From Syntrophales bacterium (GTDB lineage: Bacteria > Desulfobacterota > Syntrophia > Syntrophales > UBA2210): a stretch of DNA of 64,000 bases. The notes beneath the pieces were generated by a model, which saw only the letters and a program-made list of their open reading frames with translations, searched no databases and was not told where the DNA came from. The translations under genes were made by a program, and so were the position numbers. The stretch is taken from NCBI GenBank assembly GCA_963662405.2, contig CAXXKT010000001.1, forward strand, positions 288,001 to 352,000. The letters are read 5' to 3'. Shown piece by piece: positions 11,244 through 22,943 of this stretch (position 1 is its first letter; every line of letters starts with the position of its first letter).

Positions 11244-11458
11244 AAAAAAACCCCATCTCTCATTTTGAGAAACAGGGCTTTGATGATCAGACCATAATCC
11301 ACTCCTTGGTTACAGCTGTTCACAAGCAAAAAGAATCAAGATCAAAATCGCTACTTAGTTAGCTCTATGATGATGTATTGTCAAGATATTTTACGATGAG
11401 ACTTTCGAACGGTAATCCCCAGTAGTGCCCCCTGATCAAAATCATTTGTTAGTAGGTG
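11244..11458 (-). promoter_or_regulatory. Conserved leader L, copy A (TTGACA, structured segment, terminator)
   Basis: Homologous to 18354-18563 and 28688-28899. TTGACA at 11384-11379; terminator hairpin plus U-tract at 11278-11244. Confidence 0.85.
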
Positions 11459-11485
11459 TAACAAATGGCGAGAGAACATTGCTAA

Positions 11486-11722
11486 TCATTCATCCTTGTG
11501 AATGGCATCAGCAAGCATGATCAGTCTCAGAAAATACTCGGGATCCACTTGAGCCGCTTCATACTGCTGGCGAGCCATCAGATGTTCGTTCTCTTGGTAG
11601 AACTGCTCCACAAGCTGCAGGTACTCTTCCCTTCCCTCCGTGAAATCTTCACCCTTAAGGCTTTGCACCTTTGCCAGGATACCCAAGGTTTTCTGCAACA
11701 TATGGGCTGTTTTTTCGGGCAT
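11486..11722 (-). CDS. Hypothetical protein
   Basis: ATG ORF with GAGGA upstream, 78 aa. Confidence 0.55.
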   Translation of the reverse strand: MPEKTAHMLQKTLGILAKVQSLKGEDFTEGREEYLQLVEQFYQENEHLMARQQYEAAQVDPEYFLRLIMLADAIHKDE

Positions 11723-11905
11723 AAAAAAGTCCTCGATTTAGGAGATGATGGGAGTAAAATTTACTTCAACGCCTCCTGATCATGGAAGTGTTTGCCTGGC
11801 AGAAGCCCCGGAATTTCAAAAACCCTCTTCAGCCTGGGGTTTCTGTGTGTTTGACTGATACCATCTTTCCACATACAACACTCATGGCGCTGAGAAGTAT
11901 CTTTC

Positions 11906-12088
11906 CTATGCATTTCGTTTGCTCTCATACTCGGCCTGGACCTCTTTGAGCTTGGAGTAAAATTCCTCTTCCGAAATGATGCCTTTCTCAATAAGAAGTT
12001 GGGCAAGGGTATCTGTCTGGATTGCATTGATCAGAACAAATTCTTCAAAGGATATTTCATTCTCTTTGGATTCCGCTTTTTCTGTCAT
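11906..12088 (-). CDS. Small hypothetical protein
   Basis: AGGAG SD; follows the nuclease gene as if co-transcribed. Confidence 0.65.
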   Translation of the reverse strand: MTEKAESKENEISFEEFVLINAIQTDTLAQLLIEKGIISEEEFYSKLKEVQAEYESKRNA

Positions 12089-12106
12089 CCACTTCTCCTT
12101 AATAAG

Positions 12107-12943
12107 TTAATTGAAATTTGTCTCAGCCCAACTTCTATGTATTGCTCCTTCAATCTCTTCTTCCTTTTCGTCGGGAAGGGTTCTTAGAAAATCAAGACCT
12201 GTTTTTGTCTCAATGCTATTGATCGTAGAGAGATGATCGATTACTGCATCATTTCTCGGTGTCTCTTGGTCAAAGATGAAGCTTGCCGTCCGGATGGAAT
12301 CGATGTCCTTGTCTGGTTGTATCACGATGATCTTCCAGTAGCCCGACGGAATCTTGTGACTTTCATCTGCTCCGGGTAGGGGTGTCATTTCTCTTTCATA
12401 TAGCGGCCCTGTCATCACATAAACAACATTACCTGCCCTCGCAAGGTCACGCACTTTTTCTTCAAGCTTCTTCCAGGGCCCCTGGTTGAGGCTTGCCTTT
12501 TGTGGGGTTATATTTGAAAGCATGTTTGTATCAGCCCATTGCTGTGTTCCCTTGAAGCTTGCCAAAGGAGCCTGATGCCCCCGGTCTACATGCAGGGCAG
12601 CATGTGCGCCCGTATAATCCAAAGGTTCCAATGTCTCACCATCATCCAACCACGGATCAGCTTTCCATTGCCTTGAGGTTTCCACGTCTCCGGTGACGGT
12701 TTCTTTATCGAGACGATAGCAGACCCAATCTGACATTTTGGTCACATCATTTGATGACAGTGCGTAGATATCACGTATGATGAGATCATTGCTCAGTGGG
12801 GTGCCGGTTGGGTAGCCGTGGATGAAATGCTTGCAGTGTATCTCGGGATAGTCGACAGCTTGGACGCCAGGCGGGGAAACGAATATGAGAGCAACAACAA
12901 AGAGACACGTAAAGATGCAAAAAAATGGTTTTCGAGCACTCAT
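12107..12943 (-). CDS. Secreted DNA/RNA non-specific endonuclease (NucA/Serratia nuclease family)
   Basis: Signal peptide; DRGHQAP, SNITPQ, LNQGPW and IPSGYWK motifs. Confidence 0.9.
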   Translation of the reverse strand: MSARKPFFCIFTCLFVVALIFVSPPGVQAVDYPEIHCKHFIHGYPTGTPLSNDLIIRDIYALSSNDVTKMSDWVCYRLDKETVTGDVETSRQWKADPWLDDGETLEPLDYTGAHAALHVDRGHQAPLASFKGTQQWADTNMLSNITPQKASLNQGPWKKLEEKVRDLARAGNVVYVMTGPLYEREMTPLPGADESHKIPSGYWKIIVIQPDKDIDSIRTASFIFDQETPRNDAVIDHLSTINSIETKTGLDFLRTLPDEKEEEIEGAIHRSWAETNFN

Positions 12944-12956
12944 TGTAATCCCTCCT

Positions 12957-13304
12957 TTAAAGGCTTCTCCTTACTCTCTTCATGAAGGCGCCAGACCTGC
13001 TCTGAGTGGTGCATGATGTCAATTCGCCGTTGAGCTTGGCCCGCGCCTGTGAGGAGAATTTGAAAGAAACAACCCTCCGGGGTTCAATGATGATATCCTC
13101 TCCCGTTTGCGGGTTCCTCCCGTTTCTGGCTTCCTTGTCGATGAGGAAGAATTTCCCGAAGCCACTGATCTTCACTTCTTCACCCTTCTCAAGAGATTGC
13201 TTCATGATCTCCAAGACGGATTCTACCAGCTCTTTCGATCTGCTCTTAGGAAAGCCCAACTCTATTTCGATTAATTGAGCGATATCTTCTTTTCTCAGGG
13301 CCAT
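12957..13304 (-). CDS. Integration host factor alpha-like protein (island copy)
   Basis: VKISGFGKF...GRNPQTGE...RRVVSFK; start reassigned to ATG 13304 after AGGAGG. Confidence 0.85.
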   Translation of the reverse strand: MALRKEDIAQLIEIELGFPKSRSKELVESVLEIMKQSLEKGEEVKISGFGKFFLIDKEARNGRNPQTGEDIIIEPRRVVSFKFSSQARAKLNGELTSCTTQSRSGAFMKRVRRSL

Positions 13305-13335
13305 GGGAAAGATACCTCCTTTTACGATAATGTTG

Positions 13336-14607
13336 TTACGACACGCGGGGTAGCTGGTCCCAGTTGGTGGTATAGGAAGGTGAGCGCCACTCGGCCACCG
13401 TTTTCCATTTTTGGTTTGTAGTGGAACCCGTGGCGGCGTATCTGACTGTATTCGACCCGAATCGACGGTTGATACTGTCGAAGGCTCGCATGATCTCGTT
13501 GGAGTGTTTCTCTCGATTTTCAGCAAAGAGCGTCATCTGGGTATGGCTGTCGGAGGTCAGATCTCTGAAGACGACCCCTGCCTTTTTGTACCGGTACCCC
13601 TCCCGGTAGATCATGTCGAGAGCCTTGTGCGCGTACCGGATCAACTCCGTGGTGTTACTGGTGGCAAAGGGGAGGCGTATGGTCTCCATGTTGAAGAACC
13701 GGGATTCGCGGTGGTAGGGATTGGTCATCAGAAAGACCACGAGGATATTCGCCTCGAGGTGTGCCGCCCGCAGCTTCTCCGCCGCCCGGGATGTGAAGGC
13801 GGCTACCGCCTCGCCCACATCGGTTCGGCCCCCCAGAGGATGCTTGAACGACCGGGAGACGGTGATCTCTTTCTTGGGTGGTGGAGACTCTTCCAAGGGG
13901 TAGCATGATGCCCCTCTGAGCTCCTGGAGGATTCGAAGGCCATTTACCCCCATCTTCTTTCGTATTATCTCTTCAGGGGCATCACGAAGCTCCAGGGCGT
14001 TATTGATGCCAATGCCTCTGAGAAATGCAGCATACCTCCGTCCGATGCCCCATATGTCTCCTACTTCTGTCATGGCCAGAGCAGGAGACAGGTAGGGTGA
14101 ATCTGTCAGATCCAGAACTCCACCAGCCTTTTGAGATTTTTTAGCGATACGGTTCGCTATCTTCGCAAGGGTTTTGGTTTTCGCGATGCCGACGGAGACG
14201 GGGATGCCGGTCCACCTCCGGACCGTGGAACGTATCGATCGGCCGTAGTCGGTCAGACCCCGTCTCCGGAAGCCTGACAGGTCCAGGAAAGCCTCGTCGA
14301 TCGAATATATCTCAATATCGGGGGTGAAGCGCGAGAGGGTCTCCATCACCCGCTGTGACATATCGCCGTACAGGGCGTAGTTGGAGGAATAGACGTGCAC
14401 ACCGTGGGCCTTGATCAGGTCCCGAACCTTGAACAGGGGGACACCCATCCCGATACCGAGGGCCTTGGCCTCGTTCGACCGGGCAATGATGCAGCCGTCG
14501 TTGTTGGAAAGAACCACAACGGGCTCTCCTGTAAGCCGGGGATTGAATACCCGCTCGCAGGACACATAAAAGTTGTTGCAATCAACCAGTGCAAAGGTGG
14601 GTGACAT
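13336..14607 (-). CDS. umuC: DNA polymerase V catalytic subunit (Y-family)
   Basis: [30 protein letters not shown] and SPSYTT.W motifs. Confidence 0.95.
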
Positions 14608-14624
14608 GATCAATACCGATGATA

Positions 14625-15050
14625 CTACAACGGATGGATTACGTTGGTGACCACGCCCCATACTTCGAAGTCCATCTCTTCTTCGATCTGGAGGGGCTGG
14701 TACTCCCTGTTTTCTGAAATCAGGACCACCTTCCCCTTGGTGACCCGGATCCTCCTCACGGTCAGTTCACCGTTCACCACGGCAATGACGACCTTCTTAT
14801 CAACGGGCTTGAGGGAACGGTCGACGATCAGGATGTCTCCGTCGTGGATTCCAGCATCGATCATGGAGTTTCCTGTCACCTTCACGAAGAAGGTCGCTGC
14901 GGGGTGCTTGATGAGGTACTGGTTCAGATCGAGGTTCCCCTCGATGTAGTCTTCCGCGGGGGAGGGAAATCCCGCCGAAACCGGTACCAGAAAGAGGGGG
15001 CGCTTACATTCTGTCGACTGGTCCGGTTGGTATATGGCTGTTACTTTCAT
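14625..15050 (-). CDS. umuD: DNA polymerase V subunit / S24 autopeptidase
   Basis: [19 protein letters not shown] and WGVVT motifs; adjacent to umuC. Confidence 0.95.
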
Positions 15051-15273
15051 GGCTGCGTATCATATAAGATGTGTTGCCATTTCTCAATCGGATACTTGAT
15101 TCATGTTCCGCCTACCGTGAGTCACGGGTTGAAACTCCCCTGAGATGAGCTTTCGCCTTTTCCCCCAAATAATTGCCTTACAACCTTAGCAAACTACCCG
15201 TAAATAGCTTGCGCGACAACCTTCAAACGATTATGTTTCTATTCAAGGCACATCCTTTTTTCGGGAGAAGAGT

Positions 15274-15645
15274 ATGAACAGAAAACCAACCATTACCATT
15301 ATGGCAGATTACGGCAATGGCCCGTATGCGTGGATACGAGAACTGGGATCGCCCGAACGCTCAATTGGGCCATGCCTTGCCGATGCTATCTGTGGATTTC
15401 CTGAAGAATTCGGTGTTTCCAAAGAACTTGAGAAACAATTTGCTGAGTGGGTCACAGAATTTGAAAGAGACTGGAGAGATCACAATATTACCGATTGGGA
15501 AGAATGGAACCAGCGGGGAATAGATCTTTCCAAAAAACTCAAAAGGGAATTCGGAGATAAATTCCTTGTGAAGTATCACTATCCTCATGAAGATCCGAGG
15601 TTTGATGGCGATCCGCCACGTTTTGAAATAACCGATCAAATATAG
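15274..15645 (+). CDS. Hypothetical protein
   Basis: GGAG SD, ATG, 123-aa ORF with protein-like composition. Confidence 0.65.
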   Translation: MNRKPTITIMADYGNGPYAWIRELGSPERSIGPCLADAICGFPEEFGVSKELEKQFAEWVTEFERDWRDHNITDWEEWNQRGIDLSKKLKREFGDKFLVKYHYPHEDPRFDGDPPRFEITDQI

Positions 15646-16462
15646 TTGTCACACCTATCGCCGTCTCTCTCCTACAGGCTTCTCCATGGCTGCTTGGGAC
15701 ATCGGCATCTTGCGAACACACTCGTCCTTCAGTTTCCACTCGCCGTTTGTGTTTTTTGACGAGTCTTGAATACCAAACGATCCCGTCCTTTACCACACTC
15801 TCAATATCGGCTGTTTGTTTTCCTCGGGTATATTGGTCTCCATTTTTGCCATATGGTTTAACTCCTGATCCTTCTTCGGTGACAATATTTTCAATCCTCG
15901 CTCCCACACAAGAGAAGGTCTTGAACGGTATGCCAAGGAACTTCTAGGAGATAGTCTTAATCAGCCCGCCTTAGAGGTTGTCGAAAAGGCTTCTGACTTT
16001 CCCTCTGATACGCTCGATAATGCCAATGGAGCTTATCGGGTCGGGACTATGTACCCGGTTGCGGAGCAGATCACGTTCCCGGAAGATGCAAACGAAGTCA
16101 CCTTCCATGGACTTGTCGGCCACTTCGGATTGCGTGGTTTTTTCGGTTTGGCCCTCAACGATGCTCTTCTCGATATCCATACGAACAACCCTCTCGTAAA
16201 AAAATATGCGGCAGAAAGGAGGTGTAGGACCGATCTGGCCAGTAGATGAGGCTTCACTTGAAACCACGAATGGAGCATGACAAGTGGGCTCCAATTGCCC
16301 ACGGTGAGAGGCTCCACCCGAGGCTTCATGAATCCTGTATGCTATGATCGCCAGATTGTCAAGGCGGCAGATATTTTGTTCTCACATGGTTTTGAATTTT
16401 TGCGAGGATCCATTTTCATCCTGCCTTGCTTGTGCGATCTTCGTCTGTGATGCAGTAGTTGG

Positions 16463-16738
16463 CTACTCTTCCAGGCTGTCCAGGAATTCCGTCATGTGGG
16501 CTGTCGAGATCTCCCTTGCTGTCATCTTCAGCATGTTCAGAGCCCTCGCCCTCTCGATCGGATCCTCGGGCAGATTGTTCTTCTGCACCATCTGATCGAA
16601 TATCGTCTCTTCCTGCTCGATCGCCGTCTCCACCGTCTCGGTCAGGAAGGCTCCCATCTTCTTCTCTGCCTTCAGCGCGTCCCCCGCCTTCGGGTTCGTT
16701 TTCTCCAAGTGGGCCTTGGCAATTTCCCTGTAACGCAT
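16463..16738 (-). CDS. TnpV-like hypothetical protein
   Basis: Helical pattern AHLEKTNP...EETIFDQM...RALNMLKMTAREI resembles TnpV-family proteins (recognised by eye). Confidence 0.5.
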   Translation of the reverse strand: MRYREIAKAHLEKTNPKAGDALKAEKKMGAFLTETVETAIEQEETIFDQMVQKNNLPEDPIERARALNMLKMTAREISTAHMTEFLDSLEE

Positions 16739-16996
16739 CGTTCTTCCCCCTTACTTCTTTTTCGGATAGCTTTGCTTGAGAGCTTCCTCGTACAAGCGCC
16801 CGCTCTCTTTCAGCGATGCGGGTTTCTGCTTCTTGGATATGCTCCTCTGTGAGCTTCGCGTCTCTTTGAGATCGTTCCCCTCTTTCTATACCATGATAAG
16901 CAATCCCCGTTAATTTGTAAAATATAGATTGGTCTGAAACGATGATATTGCCGTTCTCACGAACAAAAACAAGAGCATAGGACGATGAGGGGTGGA

Positions 16997-17119
16997 GTTA
17001 ATGATTATTGAAGTAACCGTATGGGATTACTTCAATCATAATTTTATCAAGTTCAAGAAGAACAGTACAACAAGGGAACAGTTCTGCCCCTCCTACAGCA
17101 AAACTCCTACCTTTCACCT
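16997..17119 (+). repeat. Conserved element E, cassette-free copy
   Basis: gttaatgattattgaag...cttcaatcataattttatc...acctttcacct; aligns with 22943/24240-24353. Confidence 0.85.
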
Positions 17120-17134
17120 TGTGTTCTAAAAGAA

Positions 17135-17330
17135 GATCAGGGGGTATAAGAGACCTTGAGACACTGGGGTAAAATAGGGGAGAGTGAATCTGTATTTCAC
17201 CTGATGCCAGAGAGCATGATTTGTAGAGTAGATCCTCTTCCCACAGCTTTGTTCAATAACTCGTACGGTATCATAAACCTTCTCAGATGGGAATGAGTTT
17301 GCACTTGCAAGGTTGATTCGAACGAAGCTA
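17135..17330 (+). ncRNA. Predicted IS110 bridge RNA (ends approximate)
   Basis: Target-loop guides ATTTCACCT (17195-17203) and GTAG (17224-27) match the empty site tttcacCTac. Donor-loop guides ACGGTATC (17266-73) and TGCAAG (17306-11) match the end junction ACGGTATCT/TGTG. Confidence 0.8.
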
Positions 17331-17372
17331 TTTTACTGGAGATTAGATTAATGTACGAGGGAGTATTGTAGT

Positions 17373-18341
17373 ATGTCAGTATCGGTTCTTGGGATAGATA
17401 TCGCAAAACAGAAATTCGACGTTGCACTTCTTGTAGAGGGGAAGACAAAACACAAAACCTGCAAAAATACGGTGGAAGGTTTTGAGACACTGACGATCTG
17501 GCTGGAGAGACAGGGAGTTCATAAGGTACATGCCTGCCTTGAGGCGACCGGCAACTATGGAGAGGAATTGGCGATCTATCTCCATGAAACCGGCCATGTG
17601 GTCAGTGTTGTCAATCCCGCTCGCATCAAAGGGTTTGGCCAAAGCGAGTTGATTCGCACCAAGACAGATAAGATTGATGCGGGTTTGATTGCCAGATTTT
17701 GCTTGGCTATGAGACCAGATTCTTGGAGTCCGCCCTCACCGGAGATAAGAGCCCTGAGAGCATTGGTCAGGCGGGTTGACAGCCTGATCGACATGCGAAG
17801 TAAGGAGAAGAATCGGATCAGGACGGCACATGAATCAGTCATCCCATTGATCCAAGAACACATTGACTACCTTGGCAAAGAAATAGAGAAGGTCAGGAAT
17901 CAGATCGCCGATCTGATTGATCAGGATCCAAACCTGAAAAACAAGAAAGATCTTTTACTTTCCATTCCCGCTATTGGCACGGCAACCATTCCTCACATCC
18001 TGGCAGAATTGGATGATCTGGACAAATTCAGTCATGTGCGCGAAATAGTGTCATTCATTGGGCTTGCACCACGGGAAACACTTTCCGGATCGTCTATTAA
18101 AGGCAAACCAAGGTTATGTAAGATCGGACATGCTCGACTCAGAAAAGCTCTGTATATGCCTGCACTGGTATCGATCCAATGTAATCCCGTTATGATTGCT
18201 TTTTATAATCGCCTTAAAGAGAAAGGAAAAAACGGGAAAGTGATTGTCTGTGCCATAATGAGGAAGCTGGTGCACCTTATCTTTGGAATCCTGAAATCCG
18301 GCAAAAAGTATGACCCAAATTATAAACCAGCTTTCGCTTGA
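17373..18341 (+). CDS. IS110 family DEDD recombinase/transposase
   Basis: GIDIAK, LEATG, KTDKIDA, GLAP...SGSS and LRKALYMPA motifs. Confidence 0.95.
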   Translation: MSVSVLGIDIAKQKFDVALLVEGKTKHKTCKNTVEGFETLTIWLERQGVHKVHACLEATGNYGEELAIYLHETGHVVSVVNPARIKGFGQSELIRTKTDKIDAGLIARFCLAMRPDSWSPPSPEIRALRALVRRVDSLIDMRSKEKNRIRTAHESVIPLIQEHIDYLGKEIEKVRNQIADLIDQDPNLKNKKDLLLSIPAIGTATIPHILAELDDLDKFSHVREIVSFIGLAPRETLSGSSIKGKPRLCKIGHARLRKALYMPALVSIQCNPVMIAFYNRLKEKGKNGKVIVCAIMRKLVHLIFGILKSGKKYDPNYKPAFA

Positions 18342-18353
18342 CAAGAACGGTAT

Positions 18354-18563
18354 CTACTACTGCTCAGAACAATCCCAAAAGAAAAACGATGATTACTGAT
18401 TGAAAGTCTCATGGTGAAATCTCTTGACAATACATCATCATAGAGTTAGCTAAGTGAAAGTTTGATCTTGATTTTTTCTGCTTGTGAAGGGCTATACCAA
18501 AAGGTGGATTATGGCCTGATCATCAAAAGCCCTATTTCTAATAAAGAGAGATGGGCTTTTTTT
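18354..18563 (+). promoter_or_regulatory. Conserved leader L, copy B
   Basis: TTGACA at 18424-29; SD-ATG-GCC-TGA at 18511; terminator 18529-18563. Confidence 0.85.
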
Positions 18564-18611
18564 GTGAGTAGCTTAGAAAATATGGGGGCTACTTAAACGC
18601 AGAAAACACTG

Positions 18612-19657
18612 TTAGGCAATTAAGACAAAATGGATTTCGACCAACTTAGACGCGATCTTCAATGGCTTCGAGGTGAGGACGGTGTCGTTCCAGCCAAAGA
18701 AGCAGTGAATGTATTAAGCCGACTCCTCGGCCCACTACTGGCAGAGGAAGGCTTGAATCTTTTTGAGCCAGATGGCCCAGAGTTAGGCGTCGATTTATTC
18801 GCCGGTCCTCGTGACGATGACGACGATGGGGTTAGATATAGGGCTTCGGTTGCAATAGAATATAAGCATCACGGCAAAGGGAAGCCGATTGATGTTGATG
18901 CGATCGATCAACTTACAGCAAACATAGGTAAAAGCCGATATGACCGAGCAATGCTGATTGGGCGTTTTGGCTTTACCGAAGCTGCAGTGCAAGCGGCACG
19001 TTTTCGAGAACCTGTAGCTATTGAGCTTTTGGACCTTGCAGGAATCGATGCTTGGATTCGGCGTCTGGAGGTTGGAAAGCCCGCATATGCAGAGCAAGTA
19101 CAAGTCTTGATCAAGTCAATCAGCCATGAGTTTGCAAAGCTTGTTTCCGAAACGCCCGATGCACTTGATTACCTCGAATGGCGCGATCTAGAACGGATGA
19201 TGGCACGTGTAATGGAAGGTTTGGGATTTGAATGCGAACTTACACCTCCGAGTAAAGACGGTGGTAAAGATCTGATCCTGGTTTGGAGGACAATTTCTGG
19301 TGAGCAATCCTTCATTGTTGAACTAAAACACTGGAGGTCTGGTAAACGTGTCGGAAAGAAGTCAGTTTCTGATTTTATGAGTGTAATTGTAGCCGAGAAT
19401 CGAACTGGAGGCCTGTTTTTATCCACATCAGGCTACGCTGCCGACAGGACAGAGGGGTTGACCGAAGTTACACGTGATAAACTGTGGTTTGGAGCGAAAA
19501 GCAAAGTAGTCCTTCTTGCGAAAACATACATTCGAGCGTGCAATGGGTTGTGGTCGCCACCGGATATTTTGCCAGAGGTGCTTTTCGAAGGGACAGAAAC
19601 AGCCTAACAAGGCTCTTTCAGCGGATCGCAAAAAGCCGCGCCCGCTGAAGAGCAGCG
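18612..19657 (+). mobile_element. Integron-type gene cassette 1 (1046 bp)
   Basis: 5' core G^TTAGGC (18611-17) is complementary to R'' GCCTAAC (19602-08). Confidence 0.85.
18630..19607 (+). CDS. Restriction endonuclease with two Mrr-like PD-(D/E)xK domains
   Basis: GVDLF...IEYKH and DGGKDL...VELKHW motifs; stop codon lies inside the attC. Confidence 0.8.
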   Translation: MDFDQLRRDLQWLRGEDGVVPAKEAVNVLSRLLGPLLAEEGLNLFEPDGPELGVDLFAGPRDDDDDGVRYRASVAIEYKHHGKGKPIDVDAIDQLTANIGKSRYDRAMLIGRFGFTEAAVQAARFREPVAIELLDLAGIDAWIRRLEVGKPAYAEQVQVLIKSISHEFAKLVSETPDALDYLEWRDLERMMARVMEGLGFECELTPPSKDGGKDLILVWRTISGEQSFIVELKHWRSGKRVGKKSVSDFMSVIVAENRTGGLFLSTSGYAADRTEGLTEVTRDKLWFGAKSKVVLLAKTYIRACNGLWSPPDILPEVLFEGTETA

Positions 19658-19663
19658 TTGGGT
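19602..19663 (+). repeat. attC site (62 bp)
   Basis: GCCTAAC aag gctctt(t)cagcgg...ccgctgaagagc agc GTTGGGT. Confidence 0.92.
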
Positions 19664-22600
19664 GTCATGCAATGTCAGTGGCAACCCCAACAAGGACTAT
19701 ACAGAGGCTAAATGCAATTTCGTGCCAAGCAAATAGCCCCTTCAAAAGAGTGGGGAACCTTTGAGGATTTATGCCATGCCCTATTCAAATGGGTATGGCA
19801 GGATCCGCTGGCGCAGAAGAACGGCCGGAGGGGGCAAGCACAGCACGGTGTCGATATCTTCGGTTCCCAGAACGGCGACCGCCGGTTCTATTGGGGCGTC
19901 CAGTGCAAGGGCAAGGACAGCAACTACGGCAGCAAAGCCGAATGGTCGGAAGTACTGGCGGAAATTGCTAAGGCGGAACAATTCTCTCCTAAACTAAACG
20001 AGTGGATATTCGCAACAACCGCTCCTGCGGATGCCAAAATACAAAAGGCCGCTCGGGAGTTGTCTGTCGAGCGCAAGGCCAAAGGTCTATTCAGCGTCGA
20101 CGTGCTGGGCTGGGAGGAAATCCTGGCCCTGATGGCCAGCGCGCCTGAAGTGATAACCGAGTTTTATCCCGAGCACGCCGACCATCTTCCGCAGGCGATC
20201 GAGGCATTGCGTGCCCTACCTCCCCTCGAAAAAAAACTCGCGAGCCTCGTTGAGAAAATCGATGCGAAGCTGCTTGAGCCTTCGAACCCACACGGCACCG
20301 CGATTTGGGAATTGGTGACGTTTGGTGGCGACCGCGGGCTGGGTCCTGCCTTAATGGGCTATTCGCTAGGGCCGTCTGACGCTTCTGCGTGTCCGCGCTT
20401 GACCGAGGTAGACACCGTTCTGTCGCAGCTAAAAATTGCTTATTCGGCGCGCCTCATTGGCGAGCCCGGAGCTGGAAAGTCGATCTGCTCATACCAAGCC
20501 GCGAAGGATTTGGCGGCGGAGGGCTGCAAAGTGCTGCGCCTGATCGATCCTCAGGCCGACAATATCTCGTTGGAGGCGGTATTGCCCGGCGAGCGTCGCT
20601 TGTATCTCATCGACGACGCTCATCTACTAAAACCTCACGTTCTTAGTCGCATAGAGGACCAGGCTGATCCGTTTCGACTGGTCCTCTCGACGCACAATGC
20701 TATTGAGCGCGTTATCCATCGAGGCTCGATCACCCTCGACGCGAAGCGTGCTGTGAAGACGATTGCAACTGCCTTGAGAGCCGACTTGCCCAAGACCTTA
20801 GAGGCCGTGCGCCTCGCTGACAACGATGTGGGCGAGCGCATGATGAATGTCGATATAGGGGATCGCTTGGACCATGCGGAAAGTGCTGCGGATCGCCCTT
20901 GGCAGTTCTGCTTCGTACTCGGAGGCGGCTGGCGACGATCAAAACAGGCAGCGGATTCCGCCCGTGCAAATAATGCTGACCTCATCCTTGCGGCGGTTGC
21001 GATCCGGCAGCTGGCATCTCGCGACGCGCGTGCCGCTACTGGAGAAATTGTGGAAGTCTGTAAACGTGCTGGCATCGATGCTGGAATAGTCGATCAAGGA
21101 TTGAAATGGCTAGGGAAACAAAGGCTGATCGTGGGCACGGTGGATTGTCGGACTCCGCATCAGCGCTTCGCTACGGTTGTGCTCAAACGTATTTTTGAGG
21201 GGCAAGGCAAGGACGCACGCGAGAAGATCGCCACAATGATCGAGGGCGTATTGCGCGATCCGAAATTCCCGTATGCAGGTTTGCGAGTGCTGATACATGA
21301 CCTTCGCTTCGGAAGTGGTAACTACAGTTGGACACGTCTTCTCGGACAGCCCGGGGTTGAGGCAGCGGTTGCGCGTTGCTGGGCGGCCGAAGGTTCGGAT
21401 CGCGGTTTTGCGGCACTTGCCCTTTCGGACCTGTGGGATTTCGCGGAGGGTGGAGTTACTGCCGTTGTGGAACCACATGTGTCTATACTGGCGAACTGGA
21501 TTTCCAATCCCAGCGATGGAGCATACGGTTTCGGCCACATATTGAACAATCTTGCTCAGCAGGATCGGGATGTCGCCGAGAAGGTCGTCGCAGCCACCGA
21601 CCCGATAGCAATCGCGGCAGCCTATTCCAACGCCAACCCCGATACGGCATACGGCTTGGCAGATCTCTTGAGTAGCGTGGCCTATGTAAAGGTTGATGAA
21701 TTCAACGCCAAAGTTCGCGTTGCTATTGATCGGGACAAACTGCGCGCGTTCGCCAAGCACGAAGCCTTTCTTGAGGACGCCTTCATCTTCTCGAAATTCT
21801 GCGCTTCGGTTGTTTCGTTGGACGAGGATCTGGCTCTGGAAATGGCCGAACTTTTTCTTCCAACGGCGCAGCAGGTTCTATCCAAAGACCCGGTGGAAGG
21901 ATTTCATCAACTCAGCCAAGATTTTGCTTCGACCGTACTGCGCGTGTTTGACGTGTTGCATGTGTACGTCGGGAAGCTGAAACCGACTCGCCGTCAGTTG
22001 GCAATCGCGCGGCGTATGTGCGATAAAGTCGATCCCAAGCGGGTAGCAGAACACATCTCGACGGTGCGTCCCCGGCATTTTCAGTCAGCAGGCTTCTTCC
22101 TTCATTTCCTCTGCCAGACGGCACCACGGAAATACGAAGCGGCCCTTTACCAAGTTGATTGGAAAAAGCTGGATTCTGTCATTGGCGATGATTGGGAGAA
22201 TATGCCTCATGACACCGAAGTGCTATTGGCCACCCTCTATTTACGGCCACCAACACGGCACCTTGTCCAAAAATTCATCTCCGACAGGGCTGACCGGATT
22301 TTGCATTTTCCACCGCGCCTAATGCTAATGGTGCCGGAAGTCGGTGTCGCACATCTTGACAAGGGCAACTCGCTTCGACTGGCCCAACACAACCACGTAA
22401 GTTGGGACTTCGGCGGCATAGCCTTGGCTTTCGTCGCAGATGCACGCCCCGAATTGGTTGAGCAGGCTGTCGGGCCTTTTGTTGATCCGATAATGCGTGG
22501 GGTGAGGGACTATAACCGAAATTTCACCGGGCCTGCAGAAGGTTTTGTTCGCATCGTGATTGAGCATGCGCCCGCTGCTTGGCACCAAGTTTTGGCCAGA

Positions 22601-22943
22601 CTTGATCCCGACGTGGCTAAGAAGAATTTGACTGAATGCCTCAGAGGAGATGCGGATCATCGGCGAACGGCAGCGGCCGTCATTGAGTCCGCAATGACCT
22701 TAGATGGCCCTGTCGGTGACATGGCTCGCCATTTGCGGTCACGGTTCCCAAAGGCATCAACCGCGCCGACAGGCACGCTGCGTTTCATCAGGCGGCGCGG
22801 GCGCTCGAGCCAGAAGCCCAAATGATAGCAAACTTCAGTATCTGAAGCAGGTATGGGAGTTGACACCCAACAAGAGAATGAAGACGGGTTTTTTCGCCTG
22901 CGCTCGTTCCTCGCTCCGGCGAAGAAACCGCTCATTCTTGACG
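19658..22943 (+). mobile_element. Integron-type gene cassette 2 (3286 bp)
   Basis: GTTGGGTGTCA (19657-67) is the perfect complement of TGACACCCAAC (22861-71). Confidence 0.85.
19712..22825 (+). CDS. Restriction-endonuclease-like domain + P-loop NTPase + helical C-terminus (candidate anti-phage protein)
   Basis: FEDLC...GRRGQAQHGVDI...GVQCK; Walker A GEPGAGKS; Walker B LYLIDD. Confidence 0.75.
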   Translation: MQFRAKQIAPSKEWGTFEDLCHALFKWVWQDPLAQKNGRRGQAQHGVDIFGSQNGDRRFYWGVQCKGKDSNYGSKAEWSEVLAEIAKAEQFSPKLNEWIFATTAPADAKIQKAARELSVERKAKGLFSVDVLGWEEILALMASAPEVITEFYPEHADHLPQAIEALRALPPLEKKLASLVEKIDAKLLEPSNPHGTAIWELVTFGGDRGLGPALMGYSLGPSDASACPRLTEVDTVLSQLKIAYSARLIGEPGAGKSICSYQAAKDLAAEGCKVLRLIDPQADNISLEAVLPGERRLYLIDDAHLLKPHVLSRIEDQADPFRLVLSTHNAIERVIHRGSITLDAKRAVKTIATALRADLPKTLEAVRLADNDVGERMMNVDIGDRLDHAESAADRPWQFCFVLGGGWRRSKQAADSARANNADLILAAVAIRQLASRDARAATGEIVEVCKRAGIDAGIVDQGLKWLGKQRLIVGTVDCRTPHQRFATVVLKRIFEGQGKDAREKIATMIEGVLRDPKFPYAGLRVLIHDLRFGSGNYSWTRLLGQPGVEAAVARCWAAEGSDRGFAALALSDLWDFAEGGVTAVVEPHVSILANWISNPSDGAYGFGHILNNLAQQDRDVAEKVVAATDPIAIAAAYSNANPDTAYGLADLLSSVAYVKVDEFNAKVRVAIDRDKLRAFAKHEAFLEDAFIFSKFCASVVSLDEDLALEMAELFLPTAQQVLSKDPVEGFHQLSQDFASTVLRVFDVLHVYVGKLKPTRRQLAIARRMCDKVDPKRVAEHISTVRPRHFQSAGFFLHFLCQTAPRKYEAALYQVDWKKLDSVIGDDWENMPHDTEVLLATLYLRPPTRHLVQKFISDRADRILHFPPRLMLMVPEVGVAHLDKGNSLRLAQHNHVSWDFGGIALAFVADARPELVEQAVGPFVDPIMRGVRDYNRNFTGPAEGFVRIVIEHAPAAWHQVLARLDPDVAKKNLTECLRGDADHRRTAAAVIESAMTLDGPVGDMARHLRSRFPKASTAPTGTLRFIRRRGRSSQKPK

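What the first reader, a model, noticed from the sequence alone, without database searches (positions are those of the whole stretch)
17118..18355. IS110 with a fully readable bridge RNA whose guides match its own flanks
Established: IS621-type elements encode a bispecific bridge RNA in the left end and recombine at a CT core. Seen here: stem ggggagag..atctgt / gtagat.ctcttccc encloses ATTTCACCT, an atgc/gcat inner hairpin and TGTAG, matching the empty target ctttcacCTac. A second loop carries ACGGTATC(AT) and TGCAAG, matching the donor junction ACGGTAT-CT-TGTG with two wobbles. TTGACA 10 nt before the right core would form a junction promoter on circularisation. The recombinase is intact, making this a candidate new programmable bridge recombinase orthologue.
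Basis: partly seen in the sequence, partly recalled or inferred. Interest (0 to 1): 0.7.

Follow-up and report, generated by a model that had tools for sequence, protein, structure and literature searches.

The report
Bridge-RNA element hitting recombinase sites
This is a real, intact member of the known RNA-guided jumping genes of the IS621 type; the less ordinary part is that its guide aims at the crossover point of a repeated chromosomal site that a different, protein-guided mobile element also uses.

Summary
Confirmed. 17118-18355 is an intact IS621-type IS110 element with CT cores and a 322-aa DEDD/Ser recombinase. Its left end encodes a two-loop bridge RNA. The genome holds five full copies with the same ends. 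Across 41-47 junctions from Syntrophales-type relatives, target guides, donor guide and handshake base change in step with the flanks. A near-identical left end is already in Durrant 2024's supplement, so the kind and clade are known.

Corrections: the right donor guide is discontiguous as in IS621, the right target guide is longer than four bases, and the junction promoter has a weak -10 box.

Added here: the target is neither a REP nor an attC. It is the 7-bp spacer CACCTAC of a repeated 10-7-10 palindromic site with a second box 37-50 bp away. 40 of 41 insertions carry that box. A 2.1-kb two-tyrosine-recombinase element integrates at the same spacer; the scan noted that element and hot-spot earlier in this genome. 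Whether the box is needed for targeting, or only marks tolerated sites, is untested.

The parts
17118..18355 (+). IS110 (IS621-group) element, core CT to core CT
   Evidence: Five copies in the genome share both ends and diverge outside them
17111..17119 (+). Left target half plus core (CTTTCAC-CT)
   Evidence: 8 of 9 match to the LTG
17145..17150 (+). Internal -10-like box; TGn-extended in 30 of 47 junctions of the clade, not in this copy
   Evidence: function inferred
17153..17170 (+). 5' hairpin of the bridge RNA (variable among relatives)
   Evidence: MFE fold; not in the consensus fold
17177..17242 (+). Target-binding loop with closing stem and inner hairpin
17194..17202 (+). Left target guide (LTG)
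   Evidence: covaries with the left flank
17218..17228 (+). Right target guide (core GTAG 17223-26, extension to 17218) and handshake dinucleotide 17227-28
   Evidence: layout as in PMC11208158
17246..17328 (+). Donor-binding loop with closing stem
17265..17272 (+). Left donor guide (LDG)
   Evidence: identical to 18347-18354
17303..17313 (+). Discontiguous right donor guide (17303-11) and handshake dinucleotide (17312-13)
   Evidence: 47 of 47 agreement at both covarying positions
17373..18341 (+). Recombinase, 322 aa; D9, E57, D99, D102, S238-G239
   Evidence: Pfam PF01548 + PF02371; NF033542 232.5 bits vs cut-off 140; IS621 8wt6 E 1.4e-82
18338..18343 (+). TTGACA (-35) overlapping the stop codon
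   Evidence: TTGACN in 42 of 42 readable right ends
18347..18355 (+). Left donor half plus core
18356..18406 (+). Right half of the interrupted target site: right arm and the distal GATTAC..TTGAAA box (18391-18406)
18407..18565 (+). Genome-specific repeated leader: TTGACA (18424), SD + ATG-NNN-TGA mini-ORF (18511-19), terminator
   Evidence: function unknown
18604..18617 (+). attI-like site (resembles a motif repeated after other leaders)
18630..19665 (+). Mrr-domain gene followed by an attC-like hairpin (19603-19665)

Best explanation
This is a recently active IS621-type bridge-recombinase element. Inferred from IS621, not shown here: it excises or copies out as a circle, joining ACGGTAT-CT-TGTGT, and the left-end RNA pairs its donor loop with that junction and its target loop with nnTTCAC-CT-AC(A/T)A, so the recombinase exchanges strands at CT. 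Shown by sequence comparison: the natural target is the 7-bp crossover spacer CACCTAC of a dispersed 10-7-10 palindromic site family of Syntrophales-type genomes, which a small two-tyrosine-recombinase element also uses. The guide has been tuned to the spacer and inner arms of that family, which gives the IS dozens of intergenic landing places in the variable parts of the chromosome. Confidence: about 0.97 for the IS621-type bridge RNA, about 0.88 for the site family as natural target.
For: Copies: 5 in the genome, same ends, all in CAC-CT-AC; B equals C and D equals E, with 3 differences between the pairs.
LTG vs flank, positions -4..-1: 166 of 188 matches against 149.2 shuffled, p 5e-5; at -3..-1 the flank follows a deviant guide 5 of 5 times.
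RTG +3..+4: 62 of 82 against 50.9, p 3e-4.
Handshake base vs target -1: 45 G/C and 2 A/T. RDG vs donor 13-14: 45 AC/GT and 2 AT/AT.
Site family: 30 distinct places in the genome and 0 in the reversed genome; consensus arms are exact reverse complements; found in 29 of 41 related genomes.
Distal box: 31 of 32 relatives by leave-one-out and 5 of 5 copies here, plus 4 of 4 new flanks; background 0.125%.
Two-recombinase elements are flanked by a direct 7-bp repeat, and 4 of 4 readable CACCTAC-class outer flanks carry the same box.
Against: No activity, transcript or circle was observed. Outer LTG positions -7..-5 match poorly and do not covary (77 of 141 vs 71.3, p 0.07). Copy D's target matches the LTG at only 6 of 9. 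Individual sites are weak palindromes (4.1 of 10 arm matches, against 2.3-3.4 in shifted registers). One relative (L004) lacks the box. Relatives are kin and several share flank types, so the p-values overstate. That the sites are recombinase-bound is inferred; no binding was tested.
Confidence: 0.88

Rival explanations
1. A second determinant licenses targeting: a protein bound at the site arms or the distal box (the tyrosine recombinases or a host factor), or the bend it makes, recruits or activates the bridge complex. This is a refinement of the best explanation rather than an alternative to it.
For: 40 of 41 insertions carry the distal box, while only 17 of 51 empty intergenic CACCTAC 7-mers in this genome do. 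None of the six exact TTTCACCTAC 10-mers carries it or is occupied. A second, non-guide determinant is reported for ISPpu10 (10.64898/2026.03.19.712850; abstract and Discussion read).
Against: With the extended RTG the sites already make up much of the best guide matches: at guide score 10 or more, 11 of 19 empty intergenic matches are sites. In some hosts the site family is numerous (7-52 hits) against 37-103 nine-mer matches in all. The ISPpu10-type stem-loop is absent (DNA fold z -0.02 and -0.30).
Confidence: 0.35
2. Guide pairing alone picks targets, and the bias to the site family comes from survival: insertions in genes or promoters are purged and those in the dispensable sites persist.
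For: 211 of 265 CACCTAC 7-mers are genic without the box. Native IS621 tolerates mismatched and half-matched sites (10.64898/2026.08.31.748434, section 8 read). Within this genome alone 5 of 5 is only modestly unlikely (about p 0.007 on intergenic 7-mers; about 0.15 on the best guide matches; my arithmetic).
Against: Even with a generous 70% chance per insertion, 40 of 41 is about 1e-5 if independent (my arithmetic), and box-less intergenic matches with good guide scores stay empty.
Confidence: 0.4
3. The site family is not a recombinase site but an ordinary repeat or transcription-factor site; the two-recombinase element and the IS both just happen to like the 7-mer.
For: No recombinase gene is consistently next to the sites (tyrosine-recombinase hits in only 3 fetched loci). 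No binding was tested.
Against: The 10-7-10 geometry; left and right halves recur in different combinations joined at the spacer; sites and two-recombinase elements share the spacer classes CACCTAC and CAAATAC.
Confidence: 0.12
4. The guide matches are chance, or the element is a dead relic.
For: The single-sequence fold is not significant. This copy differs from the other four at 77-80 positions.
Against: Covariation at four independent guide positions, an intact ORF and catalytic residues, and identical sister copies.
Confidence: 0.02

Closest known systems
IS621 bridge recombinase (Durrant 2024 PMC11208160; Hiraizumi 2024 PMC11208158; PMC13626964; passages read)
   Same: Left-end RNA with two internal loops, CT core, guide order LTG-RTG then LDG-RDG, discontiguous RDG, handshake dinucleotides, DEDD plus Ser active site, -35 in the right end. 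Protein match E 1.4e-82 over residues 5-316. A near-identical left end and donor of this clade stand in the paper's supplementary files 4 and 5.
   Different: The target is not a REP (IS621's REP target is recalled) but a 10-7-10 site spacer. The RTG is naturally longer. The junction -10 is weak, with an internal extended -10 in most relatives.
ISCro4 / IS622 (10.1101/2025.05.14.653916, passages read; PDB 9t56)
   Same: Same architecture; E 8e-82.
   Different: Tested and engineered; this element is not shown to be. I could not see which 72 orthologues were screened (bioRxiv supplements closed).
ISPpu10 dual-match targeting (10.64898/2026.03.19.712850; abstract and Discussion read)
   Same: All insertions fall in copies of one conserved intergenic site, with conservation beyond the guide-paired bases.
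   Different: ISPpu10's extra determinant is a GC-rich stem-loop. Here there is no stem-loop, but palindromic arms and a box 37-50 bp away.
IS1111-attC group, IS4321/IS5075, IS1202-xrs (as cited in PMC11187229, passages read)
   Same: Insertion sequences that aim at the recombination sites or ends of other mobile elements.
   Different: Those are IS1111-group or IS1202-family elements and their targets are attC, Tn21 terminal repeats or XerCD sites. This is an IS110-group element and its site is none of these.
SEs, Tn554 and RIT elements (PMC10214605, passages read) as relatives of the two-recombinase element
   Same: Several tyrosine recombinases, inverted termini and a 6-7 bp spacer carried to the target.
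   Different: Only two genes (387 and about 297 aa) in 2.15 kb; no Tfp/Srap, TnpC or third recombinase; the same 7-mer on both sides.

Membership tests
IS110 family, IS621 group | DEDD RuvC domain plus Tnp domain with catalytic Ser, 315-330 aa | tested here: met
IS110 family, IS621 group | Long non-coding left end upstream of the gene, short right end | tested here: met
   253 nt after the core vs 12 nt after the stop
IS110 family, IS621 group | Dinucleotide core CT at both junctions, no longer target duplication | tested here: met
   5 of 5 copies; 47 of 47 left and 41 of 41 right junctions (the parsing required CT)
IS110 family, IS621 group | Bridge RNA with two internal loops | tested here: met
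IS110 family, IS621 group | Guides covary with target and donor; handshake pairing | tested here: met
IS110 family, IS621 group | Promoter formed across the circle junction | tested here: inconclusive
   -35 in 42 of 42; best -10 is TCTTAT in 27 of 42 and TCTAAA here; canonical only in L051 and L059
IS110 family, IS621 group | Circular intermediate, RNA expression, guide-dependent recombination | not testable with these tools
   needs bench work or RNA reads
REP / ISPpu10-type stem-loop target | Target folds into a stable DNA hairpin | tested here: not met
   mean z -0.02 (31-mer) and -0.30 (71-mer) over 32 reconstructed sites
attC / attI target (IS1111-attC type) | RYYYAAC..GTTRRRY boxes and hairpin, or position at attI | tested here: not met
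   The site has other arms and no hairpin; attI-like and attC-like sites lie separately at 18604 and 19603; the intact IntI gene has no such site upstream
Tyrosine-recombinase core (att-like) site | Inverted arms around an asymmetric 6-8 bp spacer, exchange at the spacer | tested here: met
   (sequence geometry only)
Tyrosine-recombinase core (att-like) site | Bound and recombined by an identified recombinase | not testable with these tools
   the candidate pair is inferred from integration at the spacer
RIT / SE / Tn554 (for the two-recombinase element) | Third recombinase, or Tfp/Srap/TnpC gene | tested here: not met
   two ORFs fill the 2.15 kb between the termini

The most novel reading that the evidence does not exclude
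An IS621-type clade that parasitises the crossover of an undescribed tyrosine-recombinase site family and needs a second, non-RNA signal, namely protein bound at the arms or at a box 37-50 bp away. That would make its RNA-guided recombination licensed by another mobile element's or the host's DNA-binding protein, with two unrelated recombination chemistries competing for one 7-bp spacer.
Probability: 0.3. Interest if true: 0.7.

Novelty: new member of a known kind. Interest (0 to 1): 0.38.

Why it matters
As a bridge recombinase it is one more untested orthologue, though with a naturally long right target guide and clean natural covariation of handshake and donor guides. The target is the more useful part. 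If a distal protein-bound box gates insertion, it is a second kind of specificity layer for bridge recombinases besides the ISPpu10 stem-loop, which bears on off-target control. It also points to a widespread site family that seems to organise accessory and defence genes in Syntrophales-type genomes and that I did not find described.

Tried and rejected
Rfam over 16500-19000: nothing near a gathering score.

Single-sequence folding: not significant.

Sequencing runs: no RNA holder listed. Contigs of 4 runs showed no circle junction and no empty site; contigs drop rare forms, so this is no evidence either way.

Pattern searches used a wrong gap length and are void. The corrected pattern found nothing in viral contigs.

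The leader model did not match any of the 80 loci, so the leader is not part of the general target.

Copies C and D as a chance composite transposon: rejected; each sits in its own site, D at the end of the two-recombinase element.

The site as attI or attC, as a REP hairpin or as the chromosomal dif site: rejected or unsupported (the dif motif was recalled and gave no convincing hit).

Left-end remnants as products of self-targeting: L189 and L191 end 6 nt beyond the guide core, and L202 is too decayed to place.

The genome-wide ranking had an off-by-one error and was redone.

L102, fetched as a possible IS621 stand-in, is a different element and was used only in the protein alignment.

Full report
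OBSERVATION. The element runs from CT at 17118-19 to CT at 18354-55 and holds one 322-aa ORF. The protein has both IS110 domains, passes the NCBIfam IS110 RNA-guided transposase cut-off (232.5 vs 140 bits), and matches IS621 and ISCro4 structures at about 1e-82. D9, E57, D99, D102 and S238 line up with IS621's D11, E60, D102, D105 and S241.

COPIES. The genome has four more full copies, 94-95% identical in protein. All share both ends and lie in CAC-CT-AC. B equals C and D equals E, with 3 differences between the pairs; the window copy differs at 77-80 positions, mostly mid-ORF. Contig depth over shared parts is about 4.6 times that of unique parts in run X1, which may be the source sample. 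The closest relatives are mostly labelled Syntrophaceae, Syntrophales, Smithella or delta proteobacterium, from which I infer the host group.

BRIDGE RNA. Of the 80 loci returned (324 found) I used 52 close ones (L001-L048, L051, L052, L059, L074) and dropped the 28 distant ones. RNAalifold on 35 left ends gives the two-loop layout, with all four guide segments unpaired or nearly so. 99.1% of cells pair, and 12 of 41 pairs have two-sided changes against 3.2 in shuffles (the structure came from this alignment, so the figure leans upward). The single sequence alone is not significant.

GUIDES. Over 47 distinct left junctions, LTG positions -4..-1 match the flank in 166 of 188 cells (149.2 shuffled, p 5e-5). 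Where the guide deviates at -3..-1 the flank follows 5 of 5 times, and at -4, 6 of 9 times. Positions -7..-5 do not covary (77 of 141, p 0.07). Over 41 right junctions, positions +3..+4 match in 62 of 82 cells (50.9 shuffled, p 3e-4), so the RTG is longer than four bases, a possibility that Durrant et al. mention. Read as in the IS621 structure, the RDG is discontiguous: its first two bases track donor positions 13-14 in 47 of 47 junctions (45 AC/GT, 2 AT/AT), and the donor-loop handshake base tracks target -1 in 47 of 47 (45 G/C, 2 A/T). These sequences are kin, so the p-values overstate.

PROMOTER. TTGACN stands in 42 of 42 readable right ends. The best -10 at 16-18 bp is TCTTAT in 27 of 42 and TCTAAA in this copy; it is canonical only in the two most distant relatives, whose spacing differs. 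A TGn-extended -10 lies inside the left end in 30 of 47 junctions, but this genome's copies lack the TG. The junction promoter is therefore plausible but unproven here.

TARGET. The right flanks of unrelated insertions share a box about 37-50 bp from the core. A two-block profile built from 32 relatives finds 33 hits at 30 distinct places in this genome (4 are occupied junctions) and none in the reversed genome. The consensus 10-bp arms either side of CACCTAC are exact reverse complements, though single sites match only 4.1 of 10. Left and right halves recur in different combinations joined at the spacer. A model built from 20 natural empty sites hits 29 of 41 related genomes. The box is present in 31 of 32 relatives by leave-one-out, 5 of 5 copies here and 4 of 4 new flanks; background is 0.125%. 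The sites do not fold as hairpins.

LINK TO TYROSINE RECOMBINASES. Copy D sits at the end of a 2.15-kb element made of two XerC/D-like genes, with inverted termini and the 7-mer CACCTAC on both sides; a sister element carries CAGGAAG on both sides. Among 19 loci of such elements the flanking 7-mers fall into three classes, CACCTAC, CAGGAAG and CAAATAC. The 7-mer is directly repeated in the 12 loci where both ends could be read (one with a mismatch, one interrupted by the IS), and 4 of 4 readable CACCTAC-class outer flanks carry the distal box. I found this before reading the scan's notes, which describe the same element and hot-spot. That this pair is the site family's own enzyme is not shown; recombinase genes are rarely beside the sites.

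IS THERE A SECOND DETERMINANT? For: 40 of 41 insertions have the box, only 17 of 51 empty intergenic CACCTAC 7-mers do, and none of six exact 10-mer guide matches does. Against: with the longer RTG the sites are 11 of 19 of the best empty intergenic matches, they are numerous in some hosts, and survival bias works in the same direction. I leave this open, at about 0.35 for a mechanistic gate and 0.4 for guide plus survival.

SURROUNDINGS. In this genome the site is often followed by a repeated leader, found at 51 places at E below 1e-5: TTGACA, a ribosome-binding site with ATG-NNN-TGA in 24 of 36 aligned copies, and a terminator. In the window it is followed by an attI-like motif, an Mrr gene and an attC-like hairpin.

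SELF-TARGET TRACE. Copy C and L017/L018 each carry an exact tandem repeat of the first 82-83 bp of the left end, ending at the DNA that encodes the LTG: 2 of 47 junctions. Half-match insertion into the guide's own DNA (10.64898/2026.08.31.748434, section 8) or slippage between the 8-bp repeats would both explain it. Run X2's contig break and depth fit the duplication; X1's do not show it.

NOVELTY. The mechanism is known, and a near-identical left end and donor are in the Durrant supplement (files 4 and 5; files 3 and 4 were cut when stored and file 2 was unreadable). Seven literature searches showed no paper on this target family or on the two-gene element; the library lacks most subscription papers and bioRxiv supplements were closed. 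What I saw of each paper: passages of PMC11208160 (plus supplement hits), PMC11208158, PMC13626964, PMC11187229, PMC10214605, 10.1101/2025.05.14.653916 and 10.64898/2026.08.14.744561; abstract and section 8 of 10.64898/2026.08.31.748434; abstract and Discussion of 10.64898/2026.03.19.712850. The scan has reported other IS110 bridge RNAs in other genomes.

VERDICT. A real, ordinary-kind bridge recombinase with an unusual, testable target class. New member of a known kind; interest 0.38.

Noticed in passing
window 18407-18565 and about 50 other places in G000: Repeated leader with TTGACA, a ribosome-binding site, a two-codon ORF (ATG-NNN-TGA in 24 of 36 aligned copies, middle codon variable) and a terminator, often ahead of accessory or defence genes; no Rfam match; not found in the 80 loci.
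   Followed up: partly
G000 C1:159787-161943 and 131291-133405; L142-L158: 2.1-kb two-tyrosine-recombinase elements with three spacer classes; already noted by the scan (e1-7687075).
   Followed up: partly
G000 C1:316587-316691, 1944605-1944709, 1952100-1952204, 245559-245663; C2:337163-337267: A 104-bp unit bounded by two outward-facing sites with different spacers (CAAATAC and CACCTAC), repeated five times.
   Followed up: partly
window 11455-17118: Segment between two outward-facing sites carrying umuDC, an HU/IHF-like gene, a non-specific nuclease and a weak TnpV-like ORF; similar gene sets lie beside sites at C1:122 kb and 1.938 Mb.
   Followed up: partly
G000 C1:165269-165350; L017, L018: Exact tandem duplication of the first 82-83 bp of the left end, ending at the LTG-coding DNA.
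   Followed up: partly
L005:1-560: The left end of a relative is replaced by sequence that looks like a group II intron 3' end (recalled motif, not tested).
   Followed up: no
L024, L025, L035, L041, L043, L044, L074 right flanks: attC-like hairpins seem to begin a few bases after the distal box (by eye).
   Followed up: no
window 17120-17127 and 18342-18348: Short subterminal inverted repeat (AGAAC / GTTCT) kept in most relatives.
   Followed up: no
window 19712-22825: 1037-aa ORF with no Pfam match following the Mrr cassette; the N-terminus looks like a restriction-endonuclease fold by eye.
   Followed up: no
G000 C1:761866-761942: Decayed left-end remnant of the same IS clade without a recombinase gene.
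   Followed up: partly
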